Source: an uncultured Methanomassiliicoccales archaeon
GTDB taxonomy: Archaea; Thermoplasmatota; Thermoplasmata; Methanomassiliicoccales; UBA472
DNA: 64,000 nt
Direction: 5' to 3'
Assembly: GCA_963695345.1 (NCBI GenBank)
Contig: OY968769.1
Span: 2,400,001-2,464,000 of the forward strand
Below are positions 9,662 through 45,357 of the stretch, one piece after another. The notes beneath the pieces are model-generated. The model was not told the DNA's origin. It searched no databases and saw only the letters and a program-made list of their open reading frames with translations. Both the position numbers and the translations under genes were made by a program. The number at the start of each line of letters is the position of its first letter. The stretch's first letter is position 1.

Positions 9662-9777
9662 TTCGGCCGGTATGGCACTATGAACGCTGGCTTAATCGAT
9701 ATTATCCGAGGCGCATTATTTGATGTTTTGACATTGAGCTCATGCGGCTGCCAATTGTACGGCATCCAATCATCGCT

Positions 9778-29992: not shown

Positions 29993-30004
29993 GGAGGTCA
30001 TGAC

Positions 30005-30214: not shown

Positions 30215-30217
30215 ACC

Positions 30218-30658: not shown

Positions 30659-30786
30659 GATATCTCACGAATAGACTCACATCATCTTTTCTCTGATATT
30701 TACGTCCACTATACCACGAGGTTCGTGACATGTCTGTTACCAGTGGAGTAAACTATATTGACCCCATCTGCCATCGGTCGCCTAAC

Positions 30787-30883
30787 GGGCTCGTAGTGTA
30801 GCTTGGATATCACTGAGGCCTCCGACGTCCTTTCCAAAGGACAGGGAAAGCCTCGAACTCGGGTTCGAATCCCGACGGGCCCG
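30787..30883 (+). tRNA. tRNA-Arg(CCG) with canonical 37/38 intron (~30826-30848)
   Basis: Acceptor GGGCTCG/CGGGCCC+G, D-loop GGATA (A20 Arg identity), anticodon stem GAGGC/GCCTC, loop CT-CCG-A interrupted by a hairpin intron GTCCTTT..AAAGGAC, T-loop GTTCGAATC. Confidence 0.92.
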
Positions 30884-30899
30884 CTTCAATTATAGCCAG

Positions 30900-31872: not shown

Positions 31873-31986
31873 TGGAATTCATTGCCGATCTGAAGGGTGG
31901 TATCTAACGAAAGCATAATCTCTCATACTTTGATGTAAGAATATACAACGACAAATACAAATCATCAGGAAGGCGTTACTCTGTTC

Positions 31987-33021
31987 ATGAGGGGTCATTT
32001 CTCAAAGAGGTCGATTAGCATTGCCATAATTGGGCTTTTGTTAATTCCAACCTTGTTTCAGATGACTCTAGTATGTTCAGGAGAGGGCCAGTTTCTATTT
32101 TCGGAGGATTTCGAATCATATTCTGGTGGATATTGCCCATCGGAATTCGAATTGAGAGGTACTGGAGCGGGTGTGAGTCGTCAAGTGGTCACTGAGAACT
32201 ATGCCCATAGTGGTTATAGGTCATTCCAGATGCAAGGGGAGGCTGGGTCGGTTGTAAGCGTTGATCGACAATTCGTAAGCCCCAGCAATGAGAATTTGAT
32301 AACTGCCCAGATCATGTCAGAAGATTACACTTACTCAAAGAATTCGGGGGGTTATTATAACACAAATATTGGAATTGGTTTCTCTTCCGTTAATGATACA
32401 AAAATATTCGGATGTATATGGTTTGGCGATGATGGGAACATATACTTCGACGATGGCGAAAGTAGTATCACATTGAAGGCTTTCAACGCCTACAGTTGGT
32501 ATAAATGTGATGTGTATCTCAATTCTACGAGTAATCGTGTAACTGCCTGGATTGACGACATACTTCTTGGCACAATGGACATACAACCAGAGAAACAAAT
32601 TGATTGTGTTTCCATCATCGCTGGTGAATCTGGGGTCACCAGCTATATTGATGATCTCACATTATATGCATTTATCAGCAACATCAGCACCAATCATCAA
32701 TCTGTTACTGATGCAAGTAATCTCTATCCCATCGTAATGATACCAATCGTGGCGTTGCTGATCGGAGTTCCAGGTCTTCTCTTGCTCCTGGAAGTAAGAT
32801 CGTTCAATTCAATGCCCAAAAAGAACCTTAAGATTGAGGAAATACTAAAAGCGATTGGATTGGGATCTCCATTACTATCAATCGGTCTAGTATTGATCTT
32901 GAACCATCGAACTTTTGGTGATCAGTATGGAGATATGATGATAATTGGAGGAGTTGTTACCTTGATCATAACCCTTATGATAGTTACTCATATCGTCATT
33001 CGATGGGAACATGAAGTCTAA
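31987..33021 (+). CDS. Hypothetical membrane protein: signal peptide, beta-sandwich (ConA/LamG-like) domain, three C-terminal TM helices
   Basis: FSEDFES, AHSG.RS, WY...., AWIDD, YIDDL motifs; AT-rich. Confidence 0.7.
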   Translation: MRGHFSKRSISIAIIGLLLIPTLFQMTLVCSGEGQFLFSEDFESYSGGYCPSEFELRGTGAGVSRQVVTENYAHSGYRSFQMQGEAGSVVSVDRQFVSPSNENLITAQIMSEDYTYSKNSGGYYNTNIGIGFSSVNDTKIFGCIWFGDDGNIYFDDGESSITLKAFNAYSWYKCDVYLNSTSNRVTAWIDDILLGTMDIQPEKQIDCVSIIAGESGVTSYIDDLTLYAFISNISTNHQSVTDASNLYPIVMIPIVALLIGVPGLLLLLEVRSFNSMPKKNLKIEEILKAIGLGSPLLSIGLVLILNHRTFGDQYGDMMIIGGVVTLIITLMIVTHIVIRWEHEV

Positions 33022-33197
33022 TAGTATGTTGACCTGTTCGAAGACATCTTTCCAAAGACCTCGACCATGAATCCCAGCCAAAATCGAGAATAAGTCGGAT
33101 GTTTGAGATCGGCTATGAAAGATGAGCTGGACAAGTTATCAATTATCTTTCCTCAATAGATTTAATAATTATTCAGACCTAAATCCTATAAGAGGAC

Positions 33198-34565
33198 ATG
33201 AATGAACTCAAGCGGGCAGTGGGTTTTCCCAAGCTACTGATCTATGCCATTGGCGTGATCTTCGGAGCAGGTATCTACGCAATCATAGGGGAAGCAGCGG
33301 GAATCGCCGGACCTAGCCTCTGGCTTTCCTTTCTGCTAGCTGCTTTGGTCGCCTCTCTCACCGGCTTGAGCTATGCCGAGCTGGCCTCAATCAAGCCAAC
33401 CACGGCTTCTGAGTATCACTACGTCAAGCAAAGTTTCAACAAGCGATTTGCCTTTTTGATTGGCTGGATCCTTAATATCGTCAACACCATTGCGATCGCC
33501 ACGGTCGCCGTTGGCTTTTCTAGCTATTTCGTGGCTCTGTTCTTTCCGGGGGATTTGGGAACCGTTCTATTCAGTTCTTCTTTTCTGACCATTACCCCGG
33601 CGGTCTTCATAGCGATAATGGCCATCCTTGCGATGGCCTTGATCAACTACACTGGGATCGAGCAGTCAGCTTCTATCAATGTCGTGCTCACATTGGTAGA
33701 GACTGCGGGGTTGCTATTGATATTAGCGGTCGGTCTTGTTTACTTCGGAAACGGCGGAGCAGCCCCTAATTTGCTTGAGATGCCATTTGGATTCTCAGGT
33801 ATGTTCGGGGCTGTCGCCCTGGTTTTCTTTGCATACATCGGATTTGAAGGTCTGGTCAATCTCGGGGAGGAGGTTATTGAGCCTAAAAAGAGCATACCGA
33901 AGGCTATCGTTTATTCTTTGATCATAACAACCGTCGTGTACGTGTTGTTAGCGGTCGTAGCCATTAGCGTCGTTCCGTGGAATGAACTGGGTTCTTCCCC
34001 TGAGCCATTGACGGCTGTGGCAGAGGTTGTTCTAGGTTCGGAAGCAGGTGTTTTGCTTTCCTTCATAGCCTTGTTCGCGACCATCAACACCGTTCTTATA
34101 ATGATAACGGCCAACTCTCGTTTCTTGTATGGTATGGCAAAGGACAAGATCCTACCTTCTTTCCTGATAAAAGTAAGTGAGAAACGTAGGACTCCTTTCA
34201 ATGCAATAATCGTCGTTGCCACTGTCGGCTGCTTGTTCGTTCTGGTAAAAGATATCGGAACGCTTGCTGAGATGACCACACTAGGGATTTTTGTTGTTTT
34301 TGCAATGATAAATGCTTCTTTGATTAAGATGAGGATCAAGGATGACCTTCCGGAAGACCGGTTCAAGAGCCCGGTTAACATCGGCAAGTTCCCTTTGTTG
34401 GCTTTTTTTGGTCTTGTTTCCTGCATTTGGATGATTGGGACCTTTCTCATAAAACTCACTCCACAGGGGGTTTCGGTTGATTTTTCGAGCCCTGCTCTTA
34501 TTTTTTTAGTAATTGAAATGATATCTGGCTTTATTGCCTACGAAATATTGAAGGAAAAATCGTGA
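33198..34565 (+). CDS. APC family amino acid permease
   Basis: IFGAGIY, SYAELAS, FFAYIGFE, EE..EPKK.IPKAI, SRFLYGMA, RRTP. Confidence 0.94.
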   Translation: MNELKRAVGFPKLLIYAIGVIFGAGIYAIIGEAAGIAGPSLWLSFLLAALVASLTGLSYAELASIKPTTASEYHYVKQSFNKRFAFLIGWILNIVNTIAIATVAVGFSSYFVALFFPGDLGTVLFSSSFLTITPAVFIAIMAILAMALINYTGIEQSASINVVLTLVETAGLLLILAVGLVYFGNGGAAPNLLEMPFGFSGMFGAVALVFFAYIGFEGLVNLGEEVIEPKKSIPKAIVYSLIITTVVYVLLAVVAISVVPWNELGSSPEPLTAVAEVVLGSEAGVLLSFIALFATINTVLIMITANSRFLYGMAKDKILPSFLIKVSEKRRTPFNAIIVVATVGCLFVLVKDIGTLAEMTTLGIFVVFAMINASLIKMRIKDDLPEDRFKSPVNIGKFPLLAFFGLVSCIWMIGTFLIKLTPQGVSVDFSSPALIFLVIEMISGFIAYEILKEKS

Positions 34566-34629
34566 GGAAGCATTCTGGATCTCCACCATCACGTTAATTT
34601 TTTGAACTTTGAAGGGGAGTTCCTGTCCT

Positions 34630-34957
34630 GGGTCGCGTTCGTGACACGGTTCGGGAACAGCTGAATTTCTGTCGAGCGGCCAGCTGTCCCTCCCTTCAGG
34701 GAACTCGATTCGGATATCGTGCTGCTCCAGGTCGAGGTCTCGGATGCGGCTCATGTGAATATCTGGAAGGCGTCTCACGGTCACTAAATATGGCGTGAAT
34801 GCCTCCCGGATCATTTATCTGCGCCAATCGATATCAAATTCGCTGAGGCCTCGAGCATCTTCTGCAGGTTCTTATCCTTGAAGGTGCGGATCGTTTCATC
34901 AATCTCCTCAGGCATCCTGAACCCTTTGGGTTTCAGCTCTTCCCCAATGACAATCAT
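34630..34957 (-). pseudogene. Second, more eroded integrase fragment paralogous to 31364-31699
   Basis: KGFRMPEEIDETIRTF...VRRLPDIHMSRIRDLDL matches KGFKMPRETEKPIRTF...MRRPSEIRTSRIQDLDL. Confidence 0.8.
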
Positions 34958-35013
34958 GATATACTCGTCAAGTCCAATTGAAATGGATGATTTTTTGGAG
35001 GAGAGTGTAAAAC

Positions 35014-35799
35014 ATGGTAAAATTTGCTGACGTTCCAGATGAACAAAAGTTCACCAAATTGAGGCGTTTCAACCTGATCGCAGGTTTCTTGCACCTCATT
35101 CAGGCGATGGTAATGCTTGTGATCGCTAACTATGCCGTGAAGATGTACTTCACCACTTCATATTACGATGCGACGAACGGATTTCCTCCTACCATTGCTT
35201 CAAACCCCAGTCAGTTCTTCTCCGTACCGCTCGGTCCCATGGTTGCGGCGTTCCTGATAATGTCTGCCATCGCGCATTTCTGTGTATCGACGTTCGGTTA
35301 TAGCTGGTATGTAAAGAACCTCAAGATGAACATCAACAAGGCGAGATGGTTCGAATATGCGGTCTCCTCTTCGTTCATGTTGATCGTCATCGCCTGGCTA
35401 TGCGGCATGTGGGACTTCGTCTCCATAATGCTGCTGTTCTCTCTGAATGCCTGCATGAACCTGTTCGGTTACATGATGGAGCTGCATAACCAGACAACGG
35501 AAAAGACCAATTGGACCTCCTTCATATTCGGTTGCTTCGCCGGTCTGGTCCCCTGGATCGCCTTGATGATGTACTTCACTGGCGTAAGGGGAGGAAGTCC
35601 TCCGCTATTCGTATATGGAATCATAATATCCATTGCCTTCTTCTTCAACATCTTCGCGGTGAACATGCTGCTCCAGTACAGGAAGAAGGGGAAGTTCAAG
35701 GACTACCTTTATGGCGAGTACCTATACATCGTCCTGAGCTTGGTGGCTAAAACTGCCTTGGCATGGCAAGTGTTTGCCGGTACCTTGCGCGGTGGTTGA
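35014..35799 (+). CDS. heR: Heliorhodopsin (full length)
   Basis: Basic N-terminus LRRFN, His in GFLHLIQ and SAIAH, INKARWFEYAVSSS (Arg and counterion Glu), retinal-binding Lys in LSLVAK; 7 TM. Confidence 0.95.
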   Translation: MVKFADVPDEQKFTKLRRFNLIAGFLHLIQAMVMLVIANYAVKMYFTTSYYDATNGFPPTIASNPSQFFSVPLGPMVAAFLIMSAIAHFCVSTFGYSWYVKNLKMNINKARWFEYAVSSSFMLIVIAWLCGMWDFVSIMLLFSLNACMNLFGYMMELHNQTTEKTNWTSFIFGCFAGLVPWIALMMYFTGVRGGSPPLFVYGIIISIAFFFNIFAVNMLLQYRKKGKFKDYLYGEYLYIVLSLVAKTALAWQVFAGTLRGG

Positions 35800-36097
35800 A
35801 AACCTCTTTCATCCTTTTTTTATTCCGGCTGGTAACGGTCAATTCGACCGAAGCTGGCCAATTTTTATTCATCCAGGATCGAGACTGCTCCATGACCGCC
35901 GCATATTGGTAGGTGTTTTTTCTTCCACGTTTTTTTAACCGCCCATCTTTCAGAAGCTGAATGAATATCCTATTCAAGATAAAACGGGATGTTTCTGGCT
36001 CCGGGCATAGCAATTTCTGTGACAAGGTCAGTGCGCGTTTAAGTCCGACTGAGAAGCGTCGTTCGATTCAAATATCATAAGAAAGCTAAAGCACTAA

Positions 36098-37390
36098 ATG
36101 CGATGCGAAAAGGGCTCTCCTTGGATAATGGAGATGGACAATGATCTGCGTTTTCCCGTGCTGGACCATGACCTCGAGGTGGATGTGGTCATCGTGGGAG
36201 GGGGGATTGCAGGCATGTCCACCGCCTACTACCTAGCGCAAGGGTCCGAACTTCGGGTCGCAGTGCTGGAAAAGAACCGGATCGGCCAAGGCTCTAGCGG
36301 CCGCAACGCAGGGCAGGGTTTGGCCGTTCTGGAGAAAAGCTTCGCCGACCTCATCAAGGATCACGATGGAGAACTTATCGCGGATATTCTGAACCAGCTG
36401 GAATCAGGCCATAAGCTCCTACGTGAGCTGTGCCAGGAGGTAGGCCATCGACCCGAGCCGATAGAGGGCGTGGTCTGGACTGGCCTCTCTGGCATCGAAG
36501 AGGTCAACGGCGCCTTGATCGAGCTGGAGCTGCGTCAAAGGTTCAAAGCGCCCTTACAATCACTATTTGTGGCGGAAGAGATCGTAGGGGGGCTACAAAT
36601 CCACTCCTCAATTAAGGACCTGGTGTCGACGGAGAAGGCTCGGCGGCTGCAGGAGGTGCTACGCACTAAGGATGACTATCTGGCCGCCTTCGCCTCCCCG
36701 GTCTCGCTGGTCAACAGCGGGAAGCTCTGTCAGTCCGTCGCCAGATATCTCATGCGCGAGCACTTCGGACGAATCGCTATCTTCGAAGGCAGCGCCGTAG
36801 AGGGGATCGATGGAGGGCCTGGACTCAGGGCACGGCTCGGAAGAAACAGCGTATCCGCGAGGGCGGTGGTGCTCTGTACCAACGGCTATCCGCTACCGCG
36901 TATTTCATCTGGCATGTTTCAGAAATCCACCGCCTCGCTCAAGCAGTATCTGGCATCCATGGTGGCATACGAACCCGCGGACAGACGGAGACCGGAGGCT
37001 TTCATCTATTACCATGAGGATGGTGACCCGCGCGAGGAGCCTTATTTCTACTTCACCCGAAGGCCTTTCGACGTGACCGGAAAAGATCTGATCGCAGTCG
37101 GAGGCCCCCAATTGCAGGTCGTAGGAGACCTAGATCAGGAGGCGGAGCTGCCGGAAGGAGTCTACGGTCGAATCGACGAATTCATCAAACGTTCTTCCCT
37201 CGACCCTCTGATGAACAGCAAGGCGAGGTGCTGGAATGGGCTGATGGCCTACACATCGGACAGTCTCAGATTGGTCGGGCCCGATCCTGAGGTGAAAGGT
37301 CTATGGTATAACCTCGGCTGCAACGGCGTAGGCTTGCTGCCCTCCTTGGTATCGGGGCGAAAGTTAGCAAGGCAGCTGGAATATCTTTAA
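36098..37390 (+). CDS. FAD-dependent oxidoreductase (DadA/PuuB-like)
   Basis: DVVIVGGGIAG, GSSGRNAG, VVLCTNGY, WNGLMAYT.D...VG, NLGCNGVG. Confidence 0.9.
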   Translation: MRCEKGSPWIMEMDNDLRFPVLDHDLEVDVVIVGGGIAGMSTAYYLAQGSELRVAVLEKNRIGQGSSGRNAGQGLAVLEKSFADLIKDHDGELIADILNQLESGHKLLRELCQEVGHRPEPIEGVVWTGLSGIEEVNGALIELELRQRFKAPLQSLFVAEEIVGGLQIHSSIKDLVSTEKARRLQEVLRTKDDYLAAFASPVSLVNSGKLCQSVARYLMREHFGRIAIFEGSAVEGIDGGPGLRARLGRNSVSARAVVLCTNGYPLPRISSGMFQKSTASLKQYLASMVAYEPADRRRPEAFIYYHEDGDPREEPYFYFTRRPFDVTGKDLIAVGGPQLQVVGDLDQEAELPEGVYGRIDEFIKRSSLDPLMNSKARCWNGLMAYTSDSLRLVGPDPEVKGLWYNLGCNGVGLLPSLVSGRKLARQLEYL

Positions 37391-37415
37391 GCATTCACAA
37401 ATCAGACCATGGTGC

Positions 37416-38123
37416 ATGGAGAATGCAGTGGATCGCTTCCTTAACCAGATCAAACTTAACTGGAAATTGAAGGTCGCGATCGTTGCTACTTGTCTCATCG
37501 AGCTAATGATCATCGGATCCAGCAATGTGGAGAAGTTCGGACCCATACTCGCCTACTGCTATGGCTCTATTCCCTTCGGATTCATAATCACAAAATTCTG
37601 GACCGGGAAGGACCTCTCCGCTGAGGGGTCCACCAACGTGGGTATGGCTAACTCCTATAACGTCGGAGGCATGGTCCCGGCCATCATTACTGTCACAGGG
37701 GAGATATCCAAAGCATTGGTCCCATTGGCCGTCTCCTATCTCTTCTTCGACTTCTCCCTTACCATCTCCTGCGCCCTGTTGGTCGGCTGCTACCTGGGAA
37801 CCAACTTCTCCATATTCCTCAATGGCAAGGGTGGGATGGGGACGACGATGATGCTCTGGTCCTTGATCTTCCTCTCTCCCTTCTCCGCCCTGGCATTACT
37901 CATCTTCATGGCCATCACTATGAAGCTGATGAAAGACTCCTACCATATGGCCCTGCTGAACTACGCGGTCGGGCCATTCCTAGTTGCCATCATCGACCAA
38001 CGCTTGGTGCTCATAGCCTTCGTCACCTTCGCCGCCTTCATCTATCTCATTAAACTGAAGCCGGACATGGACGATTTCGGTGTACGAAAAAGAATGATGC
38101 ATGGCCGGAGAAAGTCCTCATGA
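37416..38123 (+). CDS. PlsY-like (glycerol-3-phosphate acyltransferase family) membrane protein with degenerate motifs
   Basis: GSIPFG, DL..EGSTNVGMAN, EISKA, FSIFLNGKGGMG. Confidence 0.8.
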   Translation: MENAVDRFLNQIKLNWKLKVAIVATCLIELMIIGSSNVEKFGPILAYCYGSIPFGFIITKFWTGKDLSAEGSTNVGMANSYNVGGMVPAIITVTGEISKALVPLAVSYLFFDFSLTISCALLVGCYLGTNFSIFLNGKGGMGTTMMLWSLIFLSPFSALALLIFMAITMKLMKDSYHMALLNYAVGPFLVAIIDQRLVLIAFVTFAAFIYLIKLKPDMDDFGVRKRMMHGRRKSS

Positions 38124-40478
38124 GATCTTCTCCACCCGTACCTGCCCGCTGTACCCATCGACCACGATGATGCTACCCTCCGGTATGCTCATGGCGTCCT
38201 TCACCGATACGACAGCCGGTATTCCACACTCGCGAGCCACAATGGATGAGTGAGACAGCATACCTCCCGATTCCGATAGGACCGCTCCCGCCTTAGCGAA
38301 AATGCTGCTCCAGCTTACATCGCTGAACGGTATCACGATGACGTCACCCTTTTGCACCGAAGGGAAGTCAGCCAAGCCCCGCACCATCCTGGCCGGACCT
38401 CTATAATAACCACCCGAGCTCGCTATGCCGCGCAGGGATAGCGCATCAAAGCTTTGGAACGGTGGCTCTTCCTCCCCGAAGATCAGCTCGGGTAGACAGA
38501 CATTTTCGCTCCTGGACATCTCCAATTTTCGAGAGACGATCAGTGTCTTAAGGTCGTCGCAAGCGTCCATCTTCAGCGCTTTCCGCAGTTCCTCCAAGTA
38601 AAGATAGAAGATATCATCTGGTCGCTCTAGCAGACCTCTTTGCGATAACCTTGATCCGAGGGACAGGAAGTAGCGGCGGAATATGCCATACCCCTTGGTA
38701 TAGGTGGAGCTCATTCGCTCTCGAAGGTCAGAAAACAATGCCGCCCTCCGCCCGATGCCCTCAACATAAGTTCTGGACATCAATGACAGGTGCAGCTCTG
38801 AAAGCTCCTTCTTTTTATCCCTCGACCTGTCTTGAGGCTCCGCAATCATGATCAGCCTCCAGACCACCTCGGGTTGCTCCCGCCACGGCGACCTGCTGAA
38901 ATCGTTCCCGCTCTCACTGTAATGGCCGAACCTCTGGATGTGCGCATCGAACTCCTGGCGCAAAGCGGTTGCCGTCGGCTCATCGCTCAGACCCGTGTAT
39001 CCGATCTTGGCCAGTCTATCTTTGGCACCTTGGTCCAATGAGTCATACAGGTTCCTCATTCGCTCGATACCTTCGTGTGGGTATGTGTTCACAGAGCGCT
39101 CGTTCATTGAGAGCCATTCCACCTTGTCCACCGGCACCTCATATCGCTTCAGCGTTCTCTTAGCCATGCGATCGAACATCATAGCGAAGAGGATGGATAG
39201 AATGTTGTAGTAGACCGCTCTGCGATCATACTGGAATAACGAGTCTACCTTGGCTATGAGCTCAGTCTCCGAAAGGCCGGACAGCTCCTCCGCCACCAAC
39301 ATGTCGTAGTAGGGTTCAGCCTGTTCGATGAAGTCGTTGACCTCGTGCCTTACGTTCAACTTCTTCAGGGCCCAAAATGACATTCGCGGTGTCAGAGCGA
39401 GCATTTTGGGGTTAATTCTGAAGCGCAGCCCTTTCTGCCCAGACATCATCATCTCCAACGACTCCCGTGGTAGCCCCATCTGCTGGAAGACCTTGCCCGC
39501 CTCGCTCATGTTGAAGTAGGCGCGATAGTGGAAAGGTTTGGCCAAGGTCAGTGGATCCATGTCCCTGACCCCGGTCAGCTCCTTGAAAATGCGCACCCAG
39601 GCACCGTTCACCAGAGGGATGTTAACGCTCCAGACCAGGGGCTTAATCTGCCCTGGGAGCATCTCTTTGGCCAGGCGATTGGAATACATGGTCTTGCGCT
39701 GCACCTCATGCACCGGACGCACCTGCACCCACCACACCTTACTACCATCGAACACCCATTCCATGTCCAGGTCGAACTTCAACTGATCCCTGAACTGTTT
39801 GGTCTCCTTGGCCACCTGAGCGAGTAGCTCGGCGGGGATTCCATCCTCCGTTCCCGTGACCACGCCGTCCTCCCAGCGAGCTGTATCAGTACCTTTCTGT
39901 ACTAGCAGCTCCCCGCTCCCCCGCACCGCTTCCACCACCGGTCTGGAGATACCTGTGATCGGGTTGAGGCTGAACGATACGCCCGACACCTCTTGTCGGA
40001 CCATCTCCTGGATCACCACGGCCATCAACACCTTTTGCTCTGACTTCCCGGACCGGTCCATGTAGCTTATGACATCATCTTCCTGTGATGAGCCCCAGAC
40101 CTTGAGGATGGCATCGAGCAATGCTTCGGTCCCGGTGACATTCAATATCGACCGGAACTGCCCCGCGAAGGAAACGGAACTTAGGTCCTCAACGTTGGCG
40201 CTTGACCTCACTGCGAACGCAGTTTTCTTAGGCAGCTTCCATTCTAGCTCTGCCCTCAGTTGAGCCATCGTACCTTTTCGGTCTCTTAATTGATCTTCAT
40301 AAGCGGGTATTATAACGACCCAGCCCCTTGGCACAGGGGCACCCAGCTGTATCAGAGTGGCTAGACCTGTCGCCTTGGACCCGACCAAGGACCGATCGAT
40401 GCCTGGCTTAATCTCGATTAGTATCTCATTGCCAACTGCGGTCGGCGAATCCTTCCCATTGAGCATACGAGAGGGCAC
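38118..40478 (-). CDS. PEP-synthase/rifampin-phosphotransferase-like dikinase (ATP-grasp, central helical domain, C-terminal phospho-His swivel domain)
   Basis: GSKATGL, AVRSSA.VED..SFAGQF, MAVVIQEMV, DMEW..VQVRP, GGMLSHSSIVARECGIPAVV. Confidence 0.9.
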   Translation of the reverse strand: MPSRMLNGKDSPTAVGNEILIEIKPGIDRSLVGSKATGLATLIQLGAPVPRGWVVIIPAYEDQLRDRKGTMAQLRAELEWKLPKKTAFAVRSSANVEDLSSVSFAGQFRSILNVTGTEALLDAILKVWGSSQEDDVISYMDRSGKSEQKVLMAVVIQEMVRQEVSGVSFSLNPITGISRPVVEAVRGSGELLVQKGTDTARWEDGVVTGTEDGIPAELLAQVAKETKQFRDQLKFDLDMEWVFDGSKVWWVQVRPVHEVQRKTMYSNRLAKEMLPGQIKPLVWSVNIPLVNGAWVRIFKELTGVRDMDPLTLAKPFHYRAYFNMSEAGKVFQQMGLPRESLEMMMSGQKGLRFRINPKMLALTPRMSFWALKKLNVRHEVNDFIEQAEPYYDMLVAEELSGLSETELIAKVDSLFQYDRRAVYYNILSILFAMMFDRMAKRTLKRYEVPVDKVEWLSMNERSVNTYPHEGIERMRNLYDSLDQGAKDRLAKIGYTGLSDEPTATALRQEFDAHIQRFGHYSESGNDFSRSPWREQPEVVWRLIMIAEPQDRSRDKKKELSELHLSLMSRTYVEGIGRRAALFSDLRERMSSTYTKGYGIFRRYFLSLGSRLSQRGLLERPDDIFYLYLEELRKALKMDACDDLKTLIVSRKLEMSRSENVCLPELIFGEEEPPFQSFDALSLRGIASSGGYYRGPARMVRGLADFPSVQKGDVIVIPFSDVSWSSIFAKAGAVLSESGGMLSHSSIVARECGIPAVVSVKDAMSIPEGSIIVVDGYSGQVRVEKIS

Positions 40479-40700
40479 GCCTTGATACTAGTCATCTTTA
40501 GAAATAAAATGATTCACTTGTCTGGTCTTAAAAGAACCCATGGCATGTCGTCCAATTCTTTGATGATATTCCTTATGAAAATCGCTCGACTGAATTAGAG
40601 TCCAGATAGTCACCAACCAGAATCACTATTGATAATCAAATAGGAAGTCTAATGATATGCAAAAGGCCTTCAAAAATTAGGGTTTGAATAGGTGTCAATC

Positions 40701-40868
40701 ATGGTCCATATGAAGGTCGGTTGCAAGTTCTGCCATAACACGGGAAAGGTAAGTCAGGTAACATCGAACGGAACCAGAACGGAGATCTGTTTCATGTGCC
40801 ATGGACGAGGCTTCACCGTAATGACGATCCGTCAGAACCAGTGCGCCGCGGTCGAAACGACCGGCTAA
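40701..40868 (+). CDS. 55-aa DnaJ-type zinc-finger mini-protein (not in ORF track)
   Basis: Hand translation MVHMKVGCKFCHNTGKVSQVTSNGTRTEICFMCHGRGFTVMTIRQNQCAAVETTG*; AGGTG RBS upstream. Confidence 0.75.
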   Translation: MVHMKVGCKFCHNTGKVSQVTSNGTRTEICFMCHGRGFTVMTIRQNQCAAVETTG

Positions 40869-41000
40869 ACCTCTCCAACAATCCTATTGTTTTACAATCA
40901 GGGGTTCGCCCTGATATCTTCATCTGAATGTCTAATAGTCATTCACTTTTGAACTCGTCGTTTTGAAATGCATATGGTGACGAGTCCCAAAATGAGGTTC

Positions 41001-41786
41001 TCATGACCAGGCCCACCATCGGTCATCATGCTGACATATCCTGACTGGCACCCTGAAAAGACTGGTGAGGTTCTTCTCATTGATCGCTTCAATCCCTTCG
41101 TCCAGGAAGATCTTGCCGTTCTTGACCATGACCACCCTGTCTATCTCGGGTATGATATCCGAAGGATCTTGCGTTACCATGATGAGGGCCTTTCCCTGAT
41201 TCACCGACCTGCGCATGGCCTCCCTTACAAGATGCTTCCCGGTAAGGTCCAATCCGTTCATCGGTTCGTCGAGTATCAGGGCTTCCGGCTCGTTCACCAA
41301 TGCGCGGGCCATGATGACCCTCCTTGCTTCACCCATCGACATTACCGACATAGGCTTCTTGGCCATTCGTTCAGACCCTACGACCGCCAGCGCCCCTCTC
41401 GCCCTCCGGCCCATCTCCCGGGTGACATTCTGCGATCGGTTCGTCCCTATCGAACCAAAGAATCCGGAAAGGACCACATCTAGCCCGTCCATATCCCGCC
41501 TGAAATCGTTCTGGACCTCACCAGAGACCAGTCCGAAGGCCCGATGGACATCATGGATGTCCCAGTATTCCGAACCCAGTATCTTGACATAGGAACGCTC
41601 GTTGGTGGTGTCATGTCGGTACTCCCCGGTAAAGGTCTTGATGAGCGATGATTTTCCGGAACCGTTTGGGCCTAGGATCACCAATCGTTCACCTGCCTCG
41701 ATCTTGAGCGTGATGTCCCTCAGTATCTTCGAATCGCCTTTGGAGATCGTGACCCTGTGCAATTCAATTATCGGTTCCGAGGACAT
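41001..41786 (-). CDS. ABC transporter ATP-binding protein (ModF-like, orphan)
   Basis: GPNGSGKS, VVLSGFFGSIG, MSMGE, LILDEP. Confidence 0.92.
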   Translation of the reverse strand: MSSEPIIELHRVTISKGDSKILRDITLKIEAGERLVILGPNGSGKSSLIKTFTGEYRHDTTNERSYVKILGSEYWDIHDVHRAFGLVSGEVQNDFRRDMDGLDVVLSGFFGSIGTNRSQNVTREMGRRARGALAVVGSERMAKKPMSVMSMGEARRVIMARALVNEPEALILDEPMNGLDLTGKHLVREAMRRSVNQGKALIMVTQDPSDIIPEIDRVVMVKNGKIFLDEGIEAINEKNLTSLFRVPVRICQHDDRWWAWS

Positions 41787-41907
41787 CAGCCCTTCAATCC
41801 AGAATGGATATTTCAGGGTGTTGAATGGAAGGGTCAGGGTTCTTAGATTGAAGTTAAACTATAGTAACTGAACACTTCCGTCTGATCCGGTGTTGGTGGT
41901 CGGAGGT

Positions 41908-42075
41908 TCAGACCGGACCCTTGACCTCTGTGACAGCGGATTTGCGTCTCCCGTTCACGCAGCCCAGAACCTGTCCCCTCTTTCCGTATAGGATCTCTCT
42001 GGGCAATGGAGGCACTGGAATGACACATTTCCATCCATTTCGGAAGCAACATTCCACGCATTCGATGACTACCAT
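41908..42075 (-). CDS. Possible small Cys-rich protein (55 aa)
   Basis: MVVIECVECCFRNGWKC...GCVNG; composition only. Confidence 0.35.
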   Translation of the reverse strand: MVVIECVECCFRNGWKCVIPVPPLPREILYGKRGQVLGCVNGRRKSAVTEVKGPV

Positions 42076-42425
42076 GGAATAACGATAGTGTTTTGCCCCT
42101 AATCCCATTATCGCACATACCAACCAATTCAACGTATGAAATGAAACAGTTAGAAATTTACCAAATAGGAACATAGGTGGAACCCGAACTGCCATAAAAT
42201 AACGAATCGGGTTCGTAATTGAAAGAACCCCATTCTTACGGGTCTGATCCTTTGAGTGTGCTCATGACATTCCGGTCAAATGCTACATCAGCCCGATCTT
42301 GTTATCACGATGAATATCCTGGCAAATAGCCATATCTAGGTCTATTTCAATTCTTTCAAGAGGCCAGAATCATTTCTGCTCATCAAGGACCTTACAAGGG
42401 ACGGTATAAGGCAACACGGCACACC

Positions 42426-43373
42426 ATGCCGCAGCTGGCCCGGTTCCATCGCTCCTACATTTTGGTGGTCTTTATCGTCCTGATGGGAATATCTCTGACC
42501 GTGGTCCCGGCGAGCGCCACGGCATCGGACGGGTCAGATACCCCAGATGTGGTGTATGTCGGTATCTACGTTAAGGACTTCAATGAGTTCAGCGTGGCCG
42601 ATGGGACCATCAAGGCCAGCTTCTATTTGACTTTGAGATCAGATACCAATGTGTCGATGGATGATCTCGAGATCACCAACGGAATCGCAACTTCCGTCGA
42701 CACCATTGACAATCAGACCAATGTGAAGGAATATCGCCTCACGGCAGAACTGAATGTCGATCCCGATCTGCACCGGTTCCCATTCGACCGCCATGTCATC
42801 CAGATCGAAATAGAACCCAAGAATCGCGACCAGAGGGAGATGGTCCTGGTCATAGAACAATCGGAGATCGGGAGGGATGTTGAGGCAGATCTTCCCGGGT
42901 GGGAATTCACCGATATGGACGCATCCATCGCGAACAAGACCTACACTCATGACGATATCTCATATTCCCGGGCGGTTTTCGTCTACGGGATCTCCAGGGA
43001 CGTCACCTCGACAGTACTGAAGTTCTTCCTTCCGATCATGCTCATCATCATCGTGGCTCTCTCCTCTCTGATGATAAAGATATCGTCCCGGCTGGGGCTC
43101 AATGCATCGATGTTCCTGGCAGCCGTTCTCATCCATTGGCGGATAGCCGACTCCATCCCCCTGGTGGCCTATGCGACCTTCCTCGATATGTTCATGATCA
43201 TCACCTATGCCACCTTGGTCATGGTGCTGGTCTCGGGACTATTGATCCTCAGGTCCACTGAAGCAAAAGATGTGGATCAGGTTAAGAGAGTCAATCGATG
43301 GTCGATAAAGATCATCCCGACCATCTCGCTGACCCTGTACTTTCTGCTCTTCATTTCACTGCTGGCGCAGTGA
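42426..43373 (+). CDS. Prokaryotic pentameric ligand-gated ion channel homolog (GLIC/ELIC-like)
   Basis: Signal peptide; V.VGIYV, DLHRFPFDRH (Pro-loop), LPGWE, pre-M1 Arg and M1 Pro (SR....LKFFLP), M2-M3 loop IPLVAYATFLD; four TM helices. Confidence 0.85.
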   Translation: MPQLARFHRSYILVVFIVLMGISLTVVPASATASDGSDTPDVVYVGIYVKDFNEFSVADGTIKASFYLTLRSDTNVSMDDLEITNGIATSVDTIDNQTNVKEYRLTAELNVDPDLHRFPFDRHVIQIEIEPKNRDQREMVLVIEQSEIGRDVEADLPGWEFTDMDASIANKTYTHDDISYSRAVFVYGISRDVTSTVLKFFLPIMLIIIVALSSLMIKISSRLGLNASMFLAAVLIHWRIADSIPLVAYATFLDMFMIITYATLVMVLVSGLLILRSTEAKDVDQVKRVNRWSIKIIPTISLTLYFLLFISLLAQ

Positions 43374-43431
43374 CAGGGGATGGAAGGTCGGGAATGATGT
43401 CTGATTGAAAAGAAAAGGAAATGAAAGGAGT

Positions 43432-43794
43432 TCAGGCGTGCTGCTTGGCCATCTCCATATACGCCGCCAGGTCAATGTCGTAAGAGGCATCCTGAGTGGT
43501 GCCGTCGATCATCTCGATCTTGGCCCTGATGTTGTTTCTTTCAAAGACTATCTGGGCGTTCTTCACGTTCGACTTGTAAACGCTTATCCTCTTTCCCGCC
43601 TGCGTCAGCTTCCTTTCCGGGCTGAACATGAGGCCAGATTCCTCGAGTAGTTTGATCTTGCGGTAACAGACAGCAATTGGGATACCGAGCATCTTGCTCA
43701 GCTCATACACGTCCTTCGGCTTCCCCATGGTAGCCAGGAGTATCTTCCCACAGTGCTCTTCGGTAAATAGTCTTGACTTTTCTAAAGCGTGCAT
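43432..43794 (-). CDS. Winged-helix (ArsR-like) transcriptional regulator
   Basis: KILLAT..PK...ELS...GIPIAVCYRKIKLL...GL...GKR...YKS. Confidence 0.85.
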   Translation of the reverse strand: MHALEKSRLFTEEHCGKILLATMGKPKDVYELSKMLGIPIAVCYRKIKLLEESGLMFSPERKLTQAGKRISVYKSNVKNAQIVFERNNIRAKIEMIDGTTQDASYDIDLAAYMEMAKQHA

Positions 43795-44184
43795 CTTTAA
43801 ACCACCCTAAGCAAAGAACGCCGATTCAGAGTATATAAACCAAATCAGGCTGTTATCATTATTGATTTTAGTAAATAATCCCTACCCAGATTGATTTACA
43901 TTATGCCCCGTCAATCAAAATGTGAATATTATAGACGGTCTTTTTATGGAAAAATGGATGACAAGGATTGACAAGGTCATGGGAATCCGGGTAGCGCATT
44001 CCAGATAATCCCCTATCTGGGGAGGTCAAATCGAGCAAAGCGTGAACGAAACCAATGAACGATCCGCCGAGGAGCAAGAAGATCATCGTCAGGTTCCAGC
44101 ACCCGGGAGCGAGATCCTTGCTTTGCGGCTCCTCTGAGGTAATTCACAAACGTTTTATCTTACCATATTCCTCGCCTGTGCATC

Positions 44185-45357
44185 ATGTACCTGACCAGAG
44201 AGGAGGAGTCCATACTTGCCGGAGAACAGGGCAATGGCAGGCGCAGGGCTATGGAACTGTTGGTCGCGGTCGGAAAGATATACGGCGCGGACAAGCTCGT
44301 TCCAATAAAATCAGCGCATCTATCCGGCGTATCGTACAAGACGATAGGCGAGGGAGGTATCGATTTCCTCCAGGAGATGTCGCAGGACAGCAATGTCTCC
44401 GTCATCACCACCCTGAACCCATCTGGCATGGACAGCGAGCGCTGGAAGGAGATGCACGTCTCCGAAGAGTTCGCCCGCAAGCAATTGGAGATCATCGAGT
44501 GCTATGGAAAGCTGGGCGTCAAGACGACATGCAGCTGCACACCATATCTCTCCATCAATGCACCAGGCAAGGGTGACACCATCGCCTGGGCGGAATCCTC
44601 GGCCCTTTCCTATGCCAACTCTGTGCTGGGGGCGAGGACCAACCGGGAAGGAGGCCCCGGGGCTTTGGCTGCTTCCATAATCGGCAAGACCCCGCTCTAC
44701 GGGCTACATCTGGACGCCAACCGCGTTCCAACCGTGGTCATCGAGGCCGAGATGAAGGAGGACCTGCTGGACTATTCGCTGCTTGGTCATGCCATAGGCA
44801 CCAGGATAGGCGGTGCCGTGCCGTTCATCAGGGGAGTAAGGCCGGGCAGCGACAAGCTCAAGATGATGGCCGCCGCGATGGCCGCGTCCGGTTCGGTGGC
44901 GTTGTTCCATGTGGAAGGGATCACCCCCGACGCCGATAGACAGGCAACCAATGGACTAGAGGTCATCAAGATCGACGAGAAAGAGCTCAGATCGTTCAAG
45001 GACAAGGTCTCCAGCGGCAAGGATCCGGACCTGATCGCCCTCGGCTGCCCCCATCTCAGCGAGGATGAGGTAAGACACCTGGCTAACGTCGTTAAGGGGA
45101 AGAGGAAGGTCAAAGACACCGATGTCTGGTTCTGCACTTCCCGGGCGGTCAAGGCCCGTTGCCCCAATGAGACCAAGGAGCTGGAGAGGATAGGCAAAGT
45201 GGTCTGCGACACCTGCATGATAGTCACCCCGATCGAGGGCGTCTACCGATGCACCGCCACGAATTCCTGTAAAGCCTGCAGCTACCTGCCATCCTTGTGC
45301 TCCCAGAAGGTGGTCTGTGAATCGGCCGAAACACTGTTGGGTTCGGTGATGCAATGA
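44185..45357 (+). CDS. Aconitase X large subunit (phosphomevalonate dehydratase, large subunit)
   Basis: AHLSGVSY, TTLNP, CSCTPY, AWAESSA, GARTNREGG, LGCPH, DTCMIV. Confidence 0.92.
   Translation: MYLTREEESILAGEQGNGRRRAMELLVAVGKIYGADKLVPIKSAHLSGVSYKTIGEGGIDFLQEMSQDSNVSVITTLNPSGMDSERWKEMHVSEEFARKQLEIIECYGKLGVKTTCSCTPYLSINAPGKGDTIAWAESSALSYANSVLGARTNREGGPGALAASIIGKTPLYGLHLDANRVPTVVIEAEMKEDLLDYSLLGHAIGTRIGGAVPFIRGVRPGSDKLKMMAAAMAASGSVALFHVEGITPDADRQATNGLEVIKIDEKELRSFKDKVSSGKDPDLIALGCPHLSEDEVRHLANVVKGKRKVKDTDVWFCTSRAVKARCPNETKELERIGKVVCDTCMIVTPIEGVYRCTATNSCKACSYLPSLCSQKVVCESAETLLGSVMQ

What the first reader, a model, noticed from the sequence alone, without database searches (positions are those of the whole stretch)
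36098..40478. Degenerate PlsY-like membrane protein paired with a PEP-dikinase-like phosphotransferase (plus an FAD oxidoreductase) in an archaeal island
Seen: a PlsY-fold gene and an ATP-grasp/phospho-His dikinase of rifampin-phosphotransferase architecture converge with overlapping ends (38118-38123), in the region interpreted as the tRNA-Arg island. The PlsY motifs are altered: GSGNxGATN becomes GSTNVGMAN, DxxKG becomes EISKA, GHxFP..GGKG becomes GTNFS..GGMG, and the C-terminal HxxN motif with the catalytic His is absent. Known: bacterial PlsY transfers acyl groups from acyl-phosphate to G3P, and archaea make ether isoprenoid lipids without it. From memory, to be verified: cyanobacteria carry G3P_acyltransf-PPDK_N-PEP-utilizer fusion proteins of unknown function. 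Inference: this is a split form of an uncharacterised two-part system in which the dikinase phosphorylates a lipophilic or small substrate and the PlsY-like subunit binds, transfers or presents it at the membrane (lipid remodelling or detoxification), possibly aided by the upstream co-oriented flavoenzyme.
Basis: partly seen in the sequence, partly recalled or inferred. Interest (0 to 1): 0.8.

Follow-up and report, generated by a model that had tools for sequence, protein, structure and literature searches.

The report
PlsY-like membrane protein with dikinase partner
A divergent relative of the bacterial lipid enzyme PlsY and an ATP-driven phosphotransferase form a conserved two-part (elsewhere fused) system of unknown substrate, found in this methanogen-related archaeon, in Asgard archaea and in many cyanobacteria.

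Summary
Window 37416-38123(+) encodes a PF02660 (PlsY-fold) protein. Window 38118-40478(-) encodes a PPDK_N + PEP-utilizers dikinase whose closest solved relative is rifampin phosphotransferase. Their two TGA stop codons abut.

The pairing is not chance. All 9 genomes of the order that carry this PlsY type have the dikinase convergent beside it. Of 42 metagenome loci picked by a PlsY-like motif alone, 30 have the dikinase next door: 5 convergent, 7 co-directional, 18 in one open frame. Fused proteins of about 1000 aa exist in an Asgard archaeon and in cyanobacteria-dominated clusters.

The PlsY-like protein is not degenerate. It belongs to a conserved sister clade of canonical PlsY that keeps the glycine-rich "phosphate hole". 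It has replaced the residues that bind glycerol-3-phosphate (R45, K104, H177, N180, R183) and H92, and it gains an invariant acidic pair.

The genome shows no PlsX, PlsC, FakB or ACP. The FAD oxidoreductase is not part of the system. It is unique to this genome.

An accessory heliorhodopsin travels with the pair.

Best reading: the dikinase phospho-activates a lipophilic substrate, most likely a fatty acid to acyl-phosphate. The membrane subunit then transfers it to an acceptor that is not glycerol-3-phosphate. The substrate is inferred, not shown.

The parts
37416..38123 (+). PlsY-like integral membrane protein (235 aa). It has the PlsY 7-TM fold plus one extra N-terminal helix and belongs to a divergent clade with GEISK, LGTNFS, GGMG and a C-terminal DD motif.
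   Evidence: PF02660 E 9.7e-25. TIGR00023 scores 65.4 bits, below its cut-off of 137.2. The fold matches 5xj5-5xj8 only. Clade residue table.
38118..40478 (-). Rph/PigC-type dikinase (786 aa): N-terminal ATP-grasp (PPDK_N), long central domain, C-terminal swivelling phospho-His domain (GGMLSH743).
   Evidence: Pfam. Best PDB matches are 5fbs and 5hv1, E about 1e-40, deposited as 'phosphoenolpyruvate synthase'; that these entries are Listeria rifampin phosphotransferase is recalled. H743 and its motif are invariant in 20 of 20 aligned homologs. The protein aligns end to end with the dikinase part of fusion P0121 (35% identity over 766 columns, E 3e-163).
35014..35799 (+). Heliorhodopsin, an accessory paralog that travels with the pair. 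It is a candidate associated gene, not a proven part.
   Evidence: PF18761 E 2.7e-95. It lies directly upstream of the PlsY-like gene in G065/L002. Within the genus this copy is found only in the two genomes that carry the pair.
36098..37390 (+). DAO-family FAD oxidoreductase, inserted between the heliorhodopsin and the PlsY-like gene. It is NOT a conserved part of the system.
   Evidence: PF01266 E 2.7e-38. It is absent beside the pair in all other loci. Its DNA has no match in 7 of 7 other genomes of the genus.
30787..30884 (+). tRNA-like gene (ARAGORN reports a 4-base anticodon 'ccga') that marks the conserved flank of the variable region holding the cassette.
   Evidence: The tRNA stretch (query 746-950) matches at 90-94% in 6 of the 7 other genomes of the genus; no match over it was listed for G109.

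Best explanation
The PlsY-like membrane protein and the convergent dikinase are two halves of one enzyme system, which many other organisms encode as a single fused protein of about 1000 aa (shown). The dikinase belongs to the ATP-grasp / swivelling-histidine family, which uses ATP (giving AMP + Pi) to load a phosphoryl group on a conserved histidine (H743 here) and pass it to a hydrophobic acceptor (family knowledge). The membrane half keeps the PlsY fold and the glycine-rich loop that forms the 'phosphate hole' for the acyl-phosphate head group in PlsY. It has lost the side chains that clamp glycerol-3-phosphate and carries an invariant acidic pair instead (shown). Inferred mechanism: at the cytoplasmic face, the dikinase phosphorylates a lipophilic substrate, most likely a free fatty acid, giving acyl-phosphate. 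This would stand in for PlsX or FakAB, which the genome lacks. The PlsY-like subunit binds that phosphorylated head group in the membrane and transfers the lipid moiety, releasing phosphate, to an acceptor that is not glycerol-3-phosphate and is probably neutral or cationic. My odds: one functional unit about 0.95; 'phospho-activation followed by transfer in the PlsY-like pocket' about 0.45; a fatty acid as the substrate about 0.3.
For: Linkage. In the order, the PlsY-like query hit 17 of 151 genomes. All 9 with hits of 42% identity or more have the dikinase convergent and abutting, although their other flanks differ: heliorhodopsin/permease, ValRS/FtsX, Fpg/ArsA. Of 42 metagenome loci selected only by the motif [LI]GT[NF][FY]S.., 30 have the dikinase adjacent: 5 convergent, 7 co-directional separate ORFs, 18 in one open frame. 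Seven have an AMP-binding gene upstream, 4 are cut by contig ends, and 1 has no partner. Fusions. P0121 (993 aa, labelled Asgard group archaeon) and P0192 (980 aa) are fused. A profile search of 1.84 billion representatives gave 9 full-length and 3 partial fused representatives, and all 12 carry PF02660 + PPDK_N by Pfam. Three fused Atlas clusters have 235, 155 and 73 members, mostly cyanobacterial. Congruent trees. The convergent PlsY-likes form one group (SH-aLRT 92), and their dikinases form one group (98). Residues, canonical 22 rows versus dikinase-linked 49 rows: H92 21/22 versus 0/49 (T in 43); T41 22/22 versus 0/49; K104 22/22 versus 6/49; H177 22/22 versus 0/49; N180 22/22 versus 0/49; R183 21/22 versus 0/49 (D28/E21); G102, G103 and G105 kept in 46-47 of 49; D59->E in 48/49; K62 kept in 48/49. 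N180D and R45K cripple G3P binding in Aquifex PlsY (PMC5700162, passages). Missing pathway. The own genome (one 2.56-Mb contig) shows no PlsX, no PlsC-type acyltransferase, no DegV/FakB and no ACP, while the same searches ring in 6-11 control genomes. Topology. In fusions the dikinase follows the PlsY-like C-terminus, next to the cytoplasm-facing active site described for PlsY. A weak pointer to a carboxylate substrate: in sister lineages the PlsY-like gene sits directly behind an adenylate-forming (carboxylate-activating) enzyme, inside a block that also holds the PcrB-family and UbiA-family archaeal lipid genes.
Against: No substrate is shown. All characterised relatives of this dikinase type that I can name phosphorylate hydroxyl or enolate oxygens (rifampin, the prodigiosin precursor, phenols, pyruvate), not carboxylates; this is recalled family knowledge. 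The two side chains that touch acyl-phosphate in PlsY (H92, T41) are also replaced, so even the donor may differ. The dikinase keeps its own large central domain, which binds the substrate in rifampin phosphotransferase, so the membrane half may only anchor or present a substrate. The AMP-binding neighbour is weak evidence: a 56-61% identical ortholog sits in the same syntenic block in genomes where no PlsY-like gene is beside it. Many loci are near-duplicates or kin, and the metagenome loci were chosen by a motif that fixes T at position 92.
Confidence: 0.45

Rival explanations
1. Membrane-lipid (or prenol) dikinase. The PlsY-like domain is the acceptor-binding module. It holds a membrane lipid with a free hydroxyl (core archaeol, a polyprenol such as dolichol or phytol, or a quinol) in the former phosphate hole. 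The acidic pair binds Mg2+, and the phospho-histidine domain phosphorylates the lipid directly. The end product is a lipid phosphate and no acyl transfer occurs.
For: Known members of the dikinase type phosphorylate hydroxyls (recalled). G3P clamp residues are lost and an invariant D-D/E pair is gained. The glycine loop is retained. In fusions the swivelling His domain lies at the far C-terminus. Neighbours recur from light and pigment or prenyl contexts: heliorhodopsin, Staygreen, PcrB/UbiA.
Against: The conserved central domain already provides a substrate pocket in the solved relative. No kinase role is known for any PF02660 protein. The neighbour themes rest on few loci.
Confidence: 0.3
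2. Ordinary PlsY. The membrane protein makes lysophosphatidic acid from glycerol-3-phosphate (or glycerol-1-phosphate) and acyl-phosphate, and the dikinase merely replaces PlsX.
For: The PF02660 fold is present. PlsY enzymes accept both glycerol-phosphate stereoisomers (PMC13400652, abstract and passages). Archaeal 'PlsY' is annotated this way in databases.
Against: TIGR00023 scores 65.4 bits against a cut-off of 137.2. R45, K104, H177, N180 and R183 are replaced clade-wide, and R183 becomes acidic. N180D costs more than 95% of activity in Aquifex PlsY. No PlsC-type enzyme was found to use the product. Cyanobacteria hold the fusion beside their canonical pathway: the Synechococcus control rings for both PF02660 and PF02504.
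Confidence: 0.08
3. Xenobiotic or antibiotic inactivation in the manner of rifampin phosphotransferase, with the PlsY-like protein acting as a membrane tether or sensor for a lipophilic toxin.
For: The closest solved structures are 5fbs and 5hv1. The pair is accessory, patchily distributed (17 of 151 genomes) and sits in a variable cassette.
Against: The NCBIfam Rph model scores 193 against a cut-off of 999. The strict clade-specific conservation of pocket residues in the membrane half argues for catalysis or binding, not tethering. Wide vertical-looking spread in cyanobacteria.
Confidence: 0.07
4. Chance neighbours with no functional link.
For: The genes are convergent, so they are not one operon in this genome.
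Against: Adjacency in 9 of 9 genomes and 30 of 42 motif-selected loci, in three different arrangements, plus many fusions.
Confidence: 0.02

Closest known systems
PlsY (acyl-phosphate:glycerol-3-phosphate acyltransferase, PF02660 / TIGR00023; Aquifex structures 5xj5-5xj8)
   Same: Same 7-TM fold (TM 0.65 by query, 0.75 by target). Conserved S/T35, N37, N42, K62 and the G102-G103-x-G105 loop that builds the phosphate hole.
   Different: H92, T41, R45, K104, H177, N180 and R183 are replaced clade-wide. There is an invariant acidic pair after the last helix. D59 becomes E. The window protein has one extra N-terminal helix. The clade separates from the sampled canonical PlsY (SH-aLRT 91). It is always partnered with a dikinase instead of PlsX.
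Rifampin phosphotransferase (Rph) and the prodigiosin ligases PigC/RedH (ATP-grasp, central domain, swivelling His domain)
   Same: Same three-part architecture and the conserved phospho-His motif. Homologs carry the central PF27448 'Rph_4th' domain. There is no PEP/pyruvate TIM-barrel domain, so it is not a PEP synthase.
   Different: Scores lie far below every equivalog cut-off: Rph 193 of 999, PigC 206 of 1300, PEP synthase 170 of 740. It is dedicated to a membrane partner. The substrate is unknown.
Uncharacterised fused G3P_acyltransf-PPDK_N-PEP-utilizers proteins (cyanobacteria; Asgard P0121)
   Same: Both halves are homologous end to end: 37% identity over 75% of the PlsY-like protein and 35% over 766 columns of the dikinase. 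They carry the same clade residues.
   Different: In the window the halves are separate, convergent genes with abutting stop codons. The fused forms lack the extra N-terminal helix.
FakAB / PlsX, the known suppliers of acyl-phosphate to PlsY
   Same: Proposed analogous role: ATP-driven (FakAB) or acyl-ACP-driven (PlsX) formation of acyl-phosphate for a PlsY-fold enzyme (PMC10146087, abstract seen in listing).
   Different: No homology. Neither DegV/FakB nor PlsX was found in this genome. The chemistry would run through phospho-histidine and yield AMP + Pi.

Membership tests
PlsY, glycerol-3-phosphate acyltransferase (TIGR00023 equivalog) | PF02660 domain and 7-TM PlsY fold | tested here: met
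   PF02660 at 88 bits against a cut-off of 24.1. The model matches only 5xj5-5xj8.
PlsY, glycerol-3-phosphate acyltransferase (TIGR00023 equivalog) | Score above the curated equivalog cut-off | tested here: not met
   65.4 bits against 137.2.
PlsY, glycerol-3-phosphate acyltransferase (TIGR00023 equivalog) | G3P phosphate clamp S35/R45/K104/N180 and the 2-OH ligand H177 | tested here: not met
   Window residues are S, N, M, D and L. In the clade, H177 and N180 are 0 of 49 and K104 is 6 of 49, against 22 of 22 in canonical rows. Roles are from PMC5700162.
PlsY, glycerol-3-phosphate acyltransferase (TIGR00023 equivalog) | Acyl-phosphate site: H92 and T41 side chains plus the glycine-rich Loop3 | tested here: inconclusive
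   H92->T and T41->A, but G102, G103 and G105, whose backbone forms the hole, are kept.
PlsY, glycerol-3-phosphate acyltransferase (TIGR00023 equivalog) | Pathway partners PlsX (or FakAB) and PlsC in the genome | tested here: not met
   PF02504, PF01553, PF02645 and PF00550 each gave 0 hits in the single-contig genome (85% complete by markers), with the controls ringing.
PlsY, glycerol-3-phosphate acyltransferase (TIGR00023 equivalog) | Acyl-phosphate-dependent acylation of G3P | not testable with these tools
   Needs an enzyme assay or complementation of a plsY mutant.
Rph/PigC-type PEP-utilising dikinase | N-terminal ATP-grasp (PPDK_N) and C-terminal mobile domain with a conserved His | tested here: met
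   PPDK_N 2.9e-38 and PEP-utilizers 2.4e-19. H743 is invariant in 20 of 20 and aligns with the His of the motif in 5fbs.
Rph/PigC-type PEP-utilising dikinase | Central Rph-type substrate domain (PF27448 Rph_4th) | tested here: inconclusive
   The precomputed Pfam list for the window's own protein (P0122) lacks PF27448, while most homologs at 35-57% identity carry it. The Pfam copy scanned here reported no PF27448 match even for P0128 and P0174, which carry it precomputed, so it may not hold the model.
Rph/PigC-type PEP-utilising dikinase | Equivalog-level identity with Rph, PigC/RedH or PEP synthase | tested here: not met
   All scores lie far below the cut-offs. No PEP/pyruvate-binding domain was found.
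Fused/split PlsY-like + dikinase family (uncharacterised) | Both halves homologous to a fused protein, and adjacency conserved | tested here: met

The most novel reading that the evidence does not exclude
The 'PlsY homologs' of archaea, including the Asgard ones cited in the lipid-divide debate, and a large cyanobacterial paralog family are not glycerol-3-phosphate acyltransferases. They would be the membrane half of a previously undescribed enzyme. A swivelling-histidine dikinase makes an activated lipid phosphate (acyl-phosphate from free fatty acid, independent of ACP and PlsX). The PlsY-fold domain then couples it to a non-phosphorylated acceptor, making a lipid class not yet assigned to any gene. 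In several lineages this would be under light control through an adjacent heliorhodopsin.
Probability: 0.2. Interest if true: 0.88.

Novelty: new variant of a known kind. Interest (0 to 1): 0.72.

Why it matters
Archaeal PlsY homologs are repeatedly cited as hints that some archaea, Asgard lineages among them, could make bacterial-type ester lipids. The same papers note that no archaeal PlsX exists and that the function "remains to be elucidated" (PMC6431249 and PMC9385802, passages read). This analysis gives a concrete and testable answer for at least one archaeal PlsY clade. It has lost the glycerol-3-phosphate site, and it always comes with, or fused to, an ATP-dependent phosphotransferase. 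That both weakens the "bacterial lipids in archaea" reading and supplies the missing activating enzyme. The same fused protein is common in cyanobacteria, where genetics is easy, so the function is directly testable. Six literature searches found no paper on the pairing. Whether the specific Loki, Heimdall and Thor sequences used in those papers belong to this clade was not checked.

Tried and rejected
- Complex prediction on the dikinase plus PlsY-like residues 40-235, using my own alignments: score 0.01, no verdict.
- The look-up of sequencing runs (kind rna) for 35000-40500: no RNA holder was listed.
The Atlas was used instead.
- The profile for unintentionally took in part of the dikinase half of P0121 (582 positions). 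Most of the 150 listed hits are therefore dikinases, and the totals (27160 at E<=0.001) say nothing about the PlsY-like clade. Only the fused and short hits were used.
- Idea rejected, dikinase replaced by an AMP-binding enzyme in sister lineages: 2 of 5 such genomes keep an intact ortholog of the dikinase elsewhere, 2 have it in pieces and 1 has none. The AMP-binding gene also has orthologs at the same site in genomes without a PlsY-like neighbour.
- Idea rejected, the FAD oxidoreductase as a third component.
- Idea rejected, an ABC/FtsX transporter as a third component: FtsX precedes the dikinase only in L003 and L004, and the window's ABC ATPase belongs to the conserved flank.
- The Rfam gathering scan of 30000-44500 found nothing, not even the ARAGORN tRNA.
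- The bacterial-type promoter/terminator scan was uninformative for an archaeon.
- PF01210 (GpsA) gave only marginal Rossmann-type hits, and the model rings in all 14 controls, so it says nothing.

Full report
**1. What is there**

Window 33-44 kb holds these genes in order:
- an amino-acid permease (33198-34565, +)
- a heliorhodopsin (35014-35799, +; PF18761 E 2.7e-95)
- a DAO-family FAD oxidoreductase (36098-37390, +)
- a 235-aa PF02660 protein (37416-38123, +)
- on the other strand, a 786-aa protein with PPDK_N (residues 83-194) and PEP-utilizers (709-778) domains (38118-40478, -)
- an ABC ATPase (41001-41786, -)

The two genes of the finding end on abutting TGA codons, tcaTGA at 38118-38123. 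The window is G000:C1:2400001-2464000 of a single-contig 2.56-Mb genome. The closest named relatives of its proteins are Methanomassiliicoccales archaea. The genome has only one PF02660 gene. It has other PPDK_N paralogs, including a 770-aa PEP-synthase-like one, so the dikinase of the pair is an extra paralog.

**2. The membrane protein is a true PlsY-fold protein but not a PlsY**

An AlphaFold2 model built on 21 homologs has pLDDT 91.2 and pTM 0.87. It matches only the five Aquifex PlsY chains (TM 0.62-0.65 by query, 0.73-0.76 by target). The next PDB hit has E 0.7.

The model shows the family's helices plus one extra N-terminal helix (residues 16-33) and a C-terminal helix (220-234). The NCBIfam PlsY equivalog scores 65.4 bits against a cut-off of 137.2.

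I took residue roles from the Aquifex structure paper (PMC5700162, passages read):
- G3P phosphate clamp: S35, R45, K104, N180
- G3P 2-OH ligands: S142, H177
- acyl-phosphate: H92, T41, and the backbone of 104-107

I then tabulated a 115-row alignment.

| Position | Canonical, 22 rows | Dikinase-linked, 49 rows |
|---|---|---|
| S35 | S 22/22 | T27 / S22 |
| T41 | T 22/22 | A38 / I11 |
| R45 | R 22/22 | M, W, R, N, G... |
| D59 | D 22/22 | E 48 |
| K62 | K 22/22 | K 48 |
| H92 | H 21/22 | T 43, no H |
| K104 | K 22/22 | M 28, K 6, R 5, L 4, H 4 |
| H177 | H 22/22 | F/Y/S/T/L, no H |
| N180 | N 22/22 | S 31, no N |
| position 182 | variable | D 44 |
| R183 | R 21/22 | D 28 / E 21 |
| G102, G103, G105 | G 22/22 | kept in 46-47 |

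The column for S142 did not align cleanly, so I make no claim for it.

Two caveats apply. The metagenome rows were picked by a motif that fixes T at position 92. Several rows are near-duplicates.

So the protein is not degenerate. It belongs to a conserved sister clade that keeps the backbone-built phosphate hole, dismantles the G3P site, and installs an acidic pair at the cytoplasmic end of the last helix. In a quick ML tree (LG+G4, SH-aLRT only) the 93 clade rows separate from the 22 canonical rows with support 91. The canonical rows were taken as outgroup, so the root is assumed.

**3. The dikinase**

The best solved relatives are 5fbs and 5hv1, E about 1e-40. They are deposited as phosphoenolpyruvate synthase; that they are the Listeria rifampin phosphotransferase is recalled.

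The motif GGMLSH743 aligns with their His motif and is invariant in 20 of 20 homologs. No PEP/pyruvate-binding domain is detected. All NCBIfam equivalogs (Rph, PigC, RedH, PEP synthase) score far below their cut-offs. Homologs carry the central Pfam domain PF27448, named Rph_4th in the Atlas.

**4. The two genes are one system**

(a) Genomes of the order. The PlsY-like query hit 17 of 151 genomes.
- In the 9 genomes with hits of 42% identity or more, tblastn finds the dikinase convergent and abutting every time. These are G000, G065, G023, G029, G021, G084, G103, G062 and G050.
- G023 has two tandem PlsY-like copies before it.
- The other flanks differ from locus to locus.

(b) Fusions.
- A search for longer proteins found P0121 (993 aa, labelled Asgard group archaeon) with PF02660 (12-188), PPDK_N and PEP-utilizers.
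- Its residues 228-987 align with window dikinase residues 31-784 at 35% identity, E 3e-163.
- P0192 (980 aa) is another fusion.
- A profile search of 1.84 billion cluster representatives put 9 full-length fused proteins (975-1025 aa) and 3 partial ones at or near the top (P0262 ranked 21st). All 12 were confirmed by Pfam.
- The Atlas lists three fused clusters of 235, 155 and 73 members. PF02660, PPDK_N and PEP-utilizers are each present in 94-100% of members, the clusters are Bacteria 100%, and the commonest phylum is Cyanobacteriota.

(c) Metagenomes. One scan used the clade motif [LI]GT[NF][FY]S[IPV][FY][LN][KRG]. It matched 128 stretches, and 42 encode a relative. Partners were then sought by tblastn and ORF reading.

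| Partner arrangement | Loci, of 42 |
|---|---|
| Dikinase convergent | 5 |
| Dikinase directly downstream on the same strand | 25 |
| of those, one open frame (fused) | 18 |
| of those, separate ORFs | 7 |
| AMP-binding gene directly upstream | 7 |
| Cut by a contig end | 4 |
| No partner despite flanks (L030) | 1 |

Several of these loci are duplicates of one another or of genome loci.

(d) The dikinase tree (65 rows, rooted on the genome's PEP-synthase paralog).
- All 6 convergent partners fall in one 12-row group (support 98).
- That group is sister (support 96) to a 3-row group: the unlinked dikinase of genome G059, P0149 (Methanomassiliicoccales-labelled) and P0138 (no label).
- Fused forms fall in at least two further groups.
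- Unfused bacterial-labelled proteins (Anaerolineales, Chloroflexota, KSB1, WOR-3), whose gene context I could not see, lie among them.

**5. What is not part of it**

The FAD oxidoreductase lies beside the pair only here.
- tblastn found it in no related locus.
- Its DNA (query 6099-7390) has no match in the 7 other genomes of the genus.
- In G065, the 91%-identical relative, the heliorhodopsin directly precedes the PlsY-like gene.

**6. The cassette and the heliorhodopsin**

Within the genus, the stretch carrying the PlsY-like gene and the dikinase is found only in G065 (91% identity). The heliorhodopsin copy next to it is likewise found only in G065 (88%). The other genomes have a heliorhodopsin only 67-68% identical, located elsewhere.

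In G043 the matches to the tRNA-side flank and to the far flank lie about 1.8 kb apart, with only the permease between them. So heliorhodopsin, PlsY-like gene and dikinase behave as an accessory cassette next to the tRNA-like gene at 30787-30884.

| Heliorhodopsin position relative to the pair | Loci |
|---|---|
| About 2 kb beyond the dikinase | G062, L024, L027 |
| Within 5.4-kb locus L029, about 1.5 kb past the end of its interrupted fused frame | L029 (fused type) |
| 14-245 kb away | G023, G029, G059, G077 |

Heliorhodopsin is common in the order (67 of 151 genomes), so co-occurrence alone means little. The repeated proximity in three different arrangements is suggestive.

Other light- or UV-related neighbours:
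- photolyase, convergent to standalone second copies (L030, L044)
- UvdE and Staygreen after a fused gene (L038)

The published heliorhodopsin neighbourhood survey lists photolyases, UvdE, carotenoid genes and glyoxylases. Its main text contains no occurrence of PlsY, acyltransferase, phosphoenolpyruvate or dikinase (PMC8612252, term search). Its supplementary tables on figshare were not seen.

**7. The AMP-binding neighbour**

The 8 genomes with more distant PlsY-like hits (30-36% identity) share the clade residues. They have no dikinase within 1.5 kb.
- In 6 of the 8, an AMP-binding (adenylate-forming) gene of about 450 aa lies directly upstream on the same strand.
- In the tree these rows are sister to the convergent group.

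This is tempting support for a carboxylate substrate, but it is weak.
- A 56-61% identical ortholog of that gene sits in the same block (DUF7479 ... AMP-binding - SNO - ... - UbiA - M50) in G000, with no PlsY-like gene there. G065, G023 and G062 also hold such an ortholog at a site away from their PlsY-like gene, but their gene order there was not examined.
- An ortholog of the dikinase is intact elsewhere in 2 of 5 such genomes, in pieces in 2 and not found in 1.
- What can be said is that here the PlsY-like gene was inserted into a block that also contains a PcrB-family gene (GGGP synthase family) and a UbiA-family gene (DGGGP synthase family).

**8. Genome context for mechanism**

No PlsX (PF02504), PlsC-type acyltransferase (PF01553), DegV/FakB (PF02645) or ACP (PF00550) was found in the genome. 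The genome is one contig and 85% complete by markers. The same searches ring in 6-11 of 14 control genomes.

In a sample of 401 genomes of the phylum, PF02660 was found in 4. Three are in this order. The fourth (G155) keeps the canonical GH motif and has a different C-terminal extension.

**9. Mechanism**

Shown: one functional unit; a PlsY fold with a retained phosphate hole and a lost G3P site; an intact phospho-His dikinase; no canonical pathway partners.

Inferred:
- The dikinase (ATP to AMP + Pi by way of His~P, as in its family) phosphorylates a lipophilic substrate.
- The membrane half binds the resulting phosphate head group and transfers the lipid moiety to an acceptor that is not G3P.
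- Acyl-phosphate is the most economical guess, because it is the only donor known for this fold and nothing else in the genome could make it.

The main rival is direct phosphorylation of a membrane lipid alcohol held by the PlsY-like domain, with the acidic pair binding Mg2+. I cannot separate the two computationally.

**10. Literature**

The archaeal PlsY literature that I read in passages (PMC6431249, PMC9385802, PMC13400652) treats these genes as PlsY homologs of unknown role. It notes that archaea lack PlsX.

These searches found nothing on this pairing:
- 'PlsY' + 'archaea' + 'PEP-utilizing' + 'fusion' (at least 3 of the 4 terms)
- 'PlsY' + 'Asgard' + 'PlsC' + 'homologs' + 'archaeal'
- 'PlsY' + 'dikinase'
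- 'PlsY-like'
- 'PF02660' / 'PF01326'
- 'heliorhodopsin' + 'acyltransferase'

Subscription journals are not covered by the library.

**Verdict**

This is a real, conserved, widespread and apparently uncharacterised two-part enzyme. The core interpretation is supported, the flavoenzyme part is rejected, and the substrate remains open.

Noticed in passing
window 35014-35799 (also L002 5113-5898; L024 9835-10551; L027 9830-10549; L029 4097-4858): A heliorhodopsin gene lies within about 2 kb of the PlsY-like/dikinase unit in three different arrangements. Within the window's genus this heliorhodopsin paralog occurs only in the two genomes that carry the pair, so it may link the system to light.
   Followed up: partly
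window 13899-14225 (and G000:C1:2552812-2553084, outside the window): Partial heliorhodopsin matches: profile positions 136-242, and 143-234 with an internal TAA. The genus-typical heliorhodopsin copy seems degraded in this genome, which would leave the cassette copy as the only intact one.
   Followed up: no
L073 (G059:C6:312000-324000) 4044-10893; L014, L016-L019, L021; L032, L037, L041, L046-L049: In sister genera a clade-type PlsY-like gene sits directly behind an AMP-binding gene. It is followed by a 410-423-aa CbiX/ferrochelatase-like gene and/or SNO (PdxT), within a block that also holds PcrB (GGGPS family) and UbiA (DGGGPS family). The window's own genome has the block without the PlsY-like gene (L072).
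   Followed up: partly
L030 2057-3457; L044 5631-6677; L038 7895-9648; L038 4174-4731 and L051 2034-2573: Fused or standalone clade members are flanked by DNA photolyase, by UvdE and a Staygreen-family protein, and by a nitroreductase directly upstream. L044 and L051 also carry a second, standalone PlsY-like copy beside the fused gene.
   Followed up: no
P0301 (1093 aa): A short-chain dehydrogenase (adh_short) fused to the same type of dikinase. This is another fusion partner for this dikinase family.
   Followed up: no
L007/L022 (G023:C1:675575-677035): Two tandem PlsY-like genes, 43% and 69% identical to the window protein, precede the convergent dikinase in one genome.
   Followed up: no
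window 30787-30884: ARAGORN reports a 98-nt tRNA with a 4-base anticodon 'ccga' (type undetermined; possibly intron-bearing). The Rfam gathering scan of 30000-44500 did not report it. The stretch is 90-94% conserved in 6 of the 7 other genomes of the genus and marks the edge of the variable region.
   Followed up: partly
G000:C1:1474153-1475054 (outside the window; L065/L070): A PPDK_N paralog with one in-frame TAG. It is either a broken gene or a read-through (pyrrolysine-type) codon; not examined.
   Followed up: no
L075 1432-2667 (G155): The only PF02660 hit outside the order in 401 genomes of the phylum keeps the canonical GH and D..K motifs. It is fused to a C-terminal membrane extension of about 200 aa with no Pfam match.
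   Followed up: partly
window 31987-33021 and 42426-43373: Two predicted membrane or secreted proteins (344 and 315 aa) with no Pfam family lie in the low-GC (0.44-0.48) flanks of the cassette.
   Followed up: no
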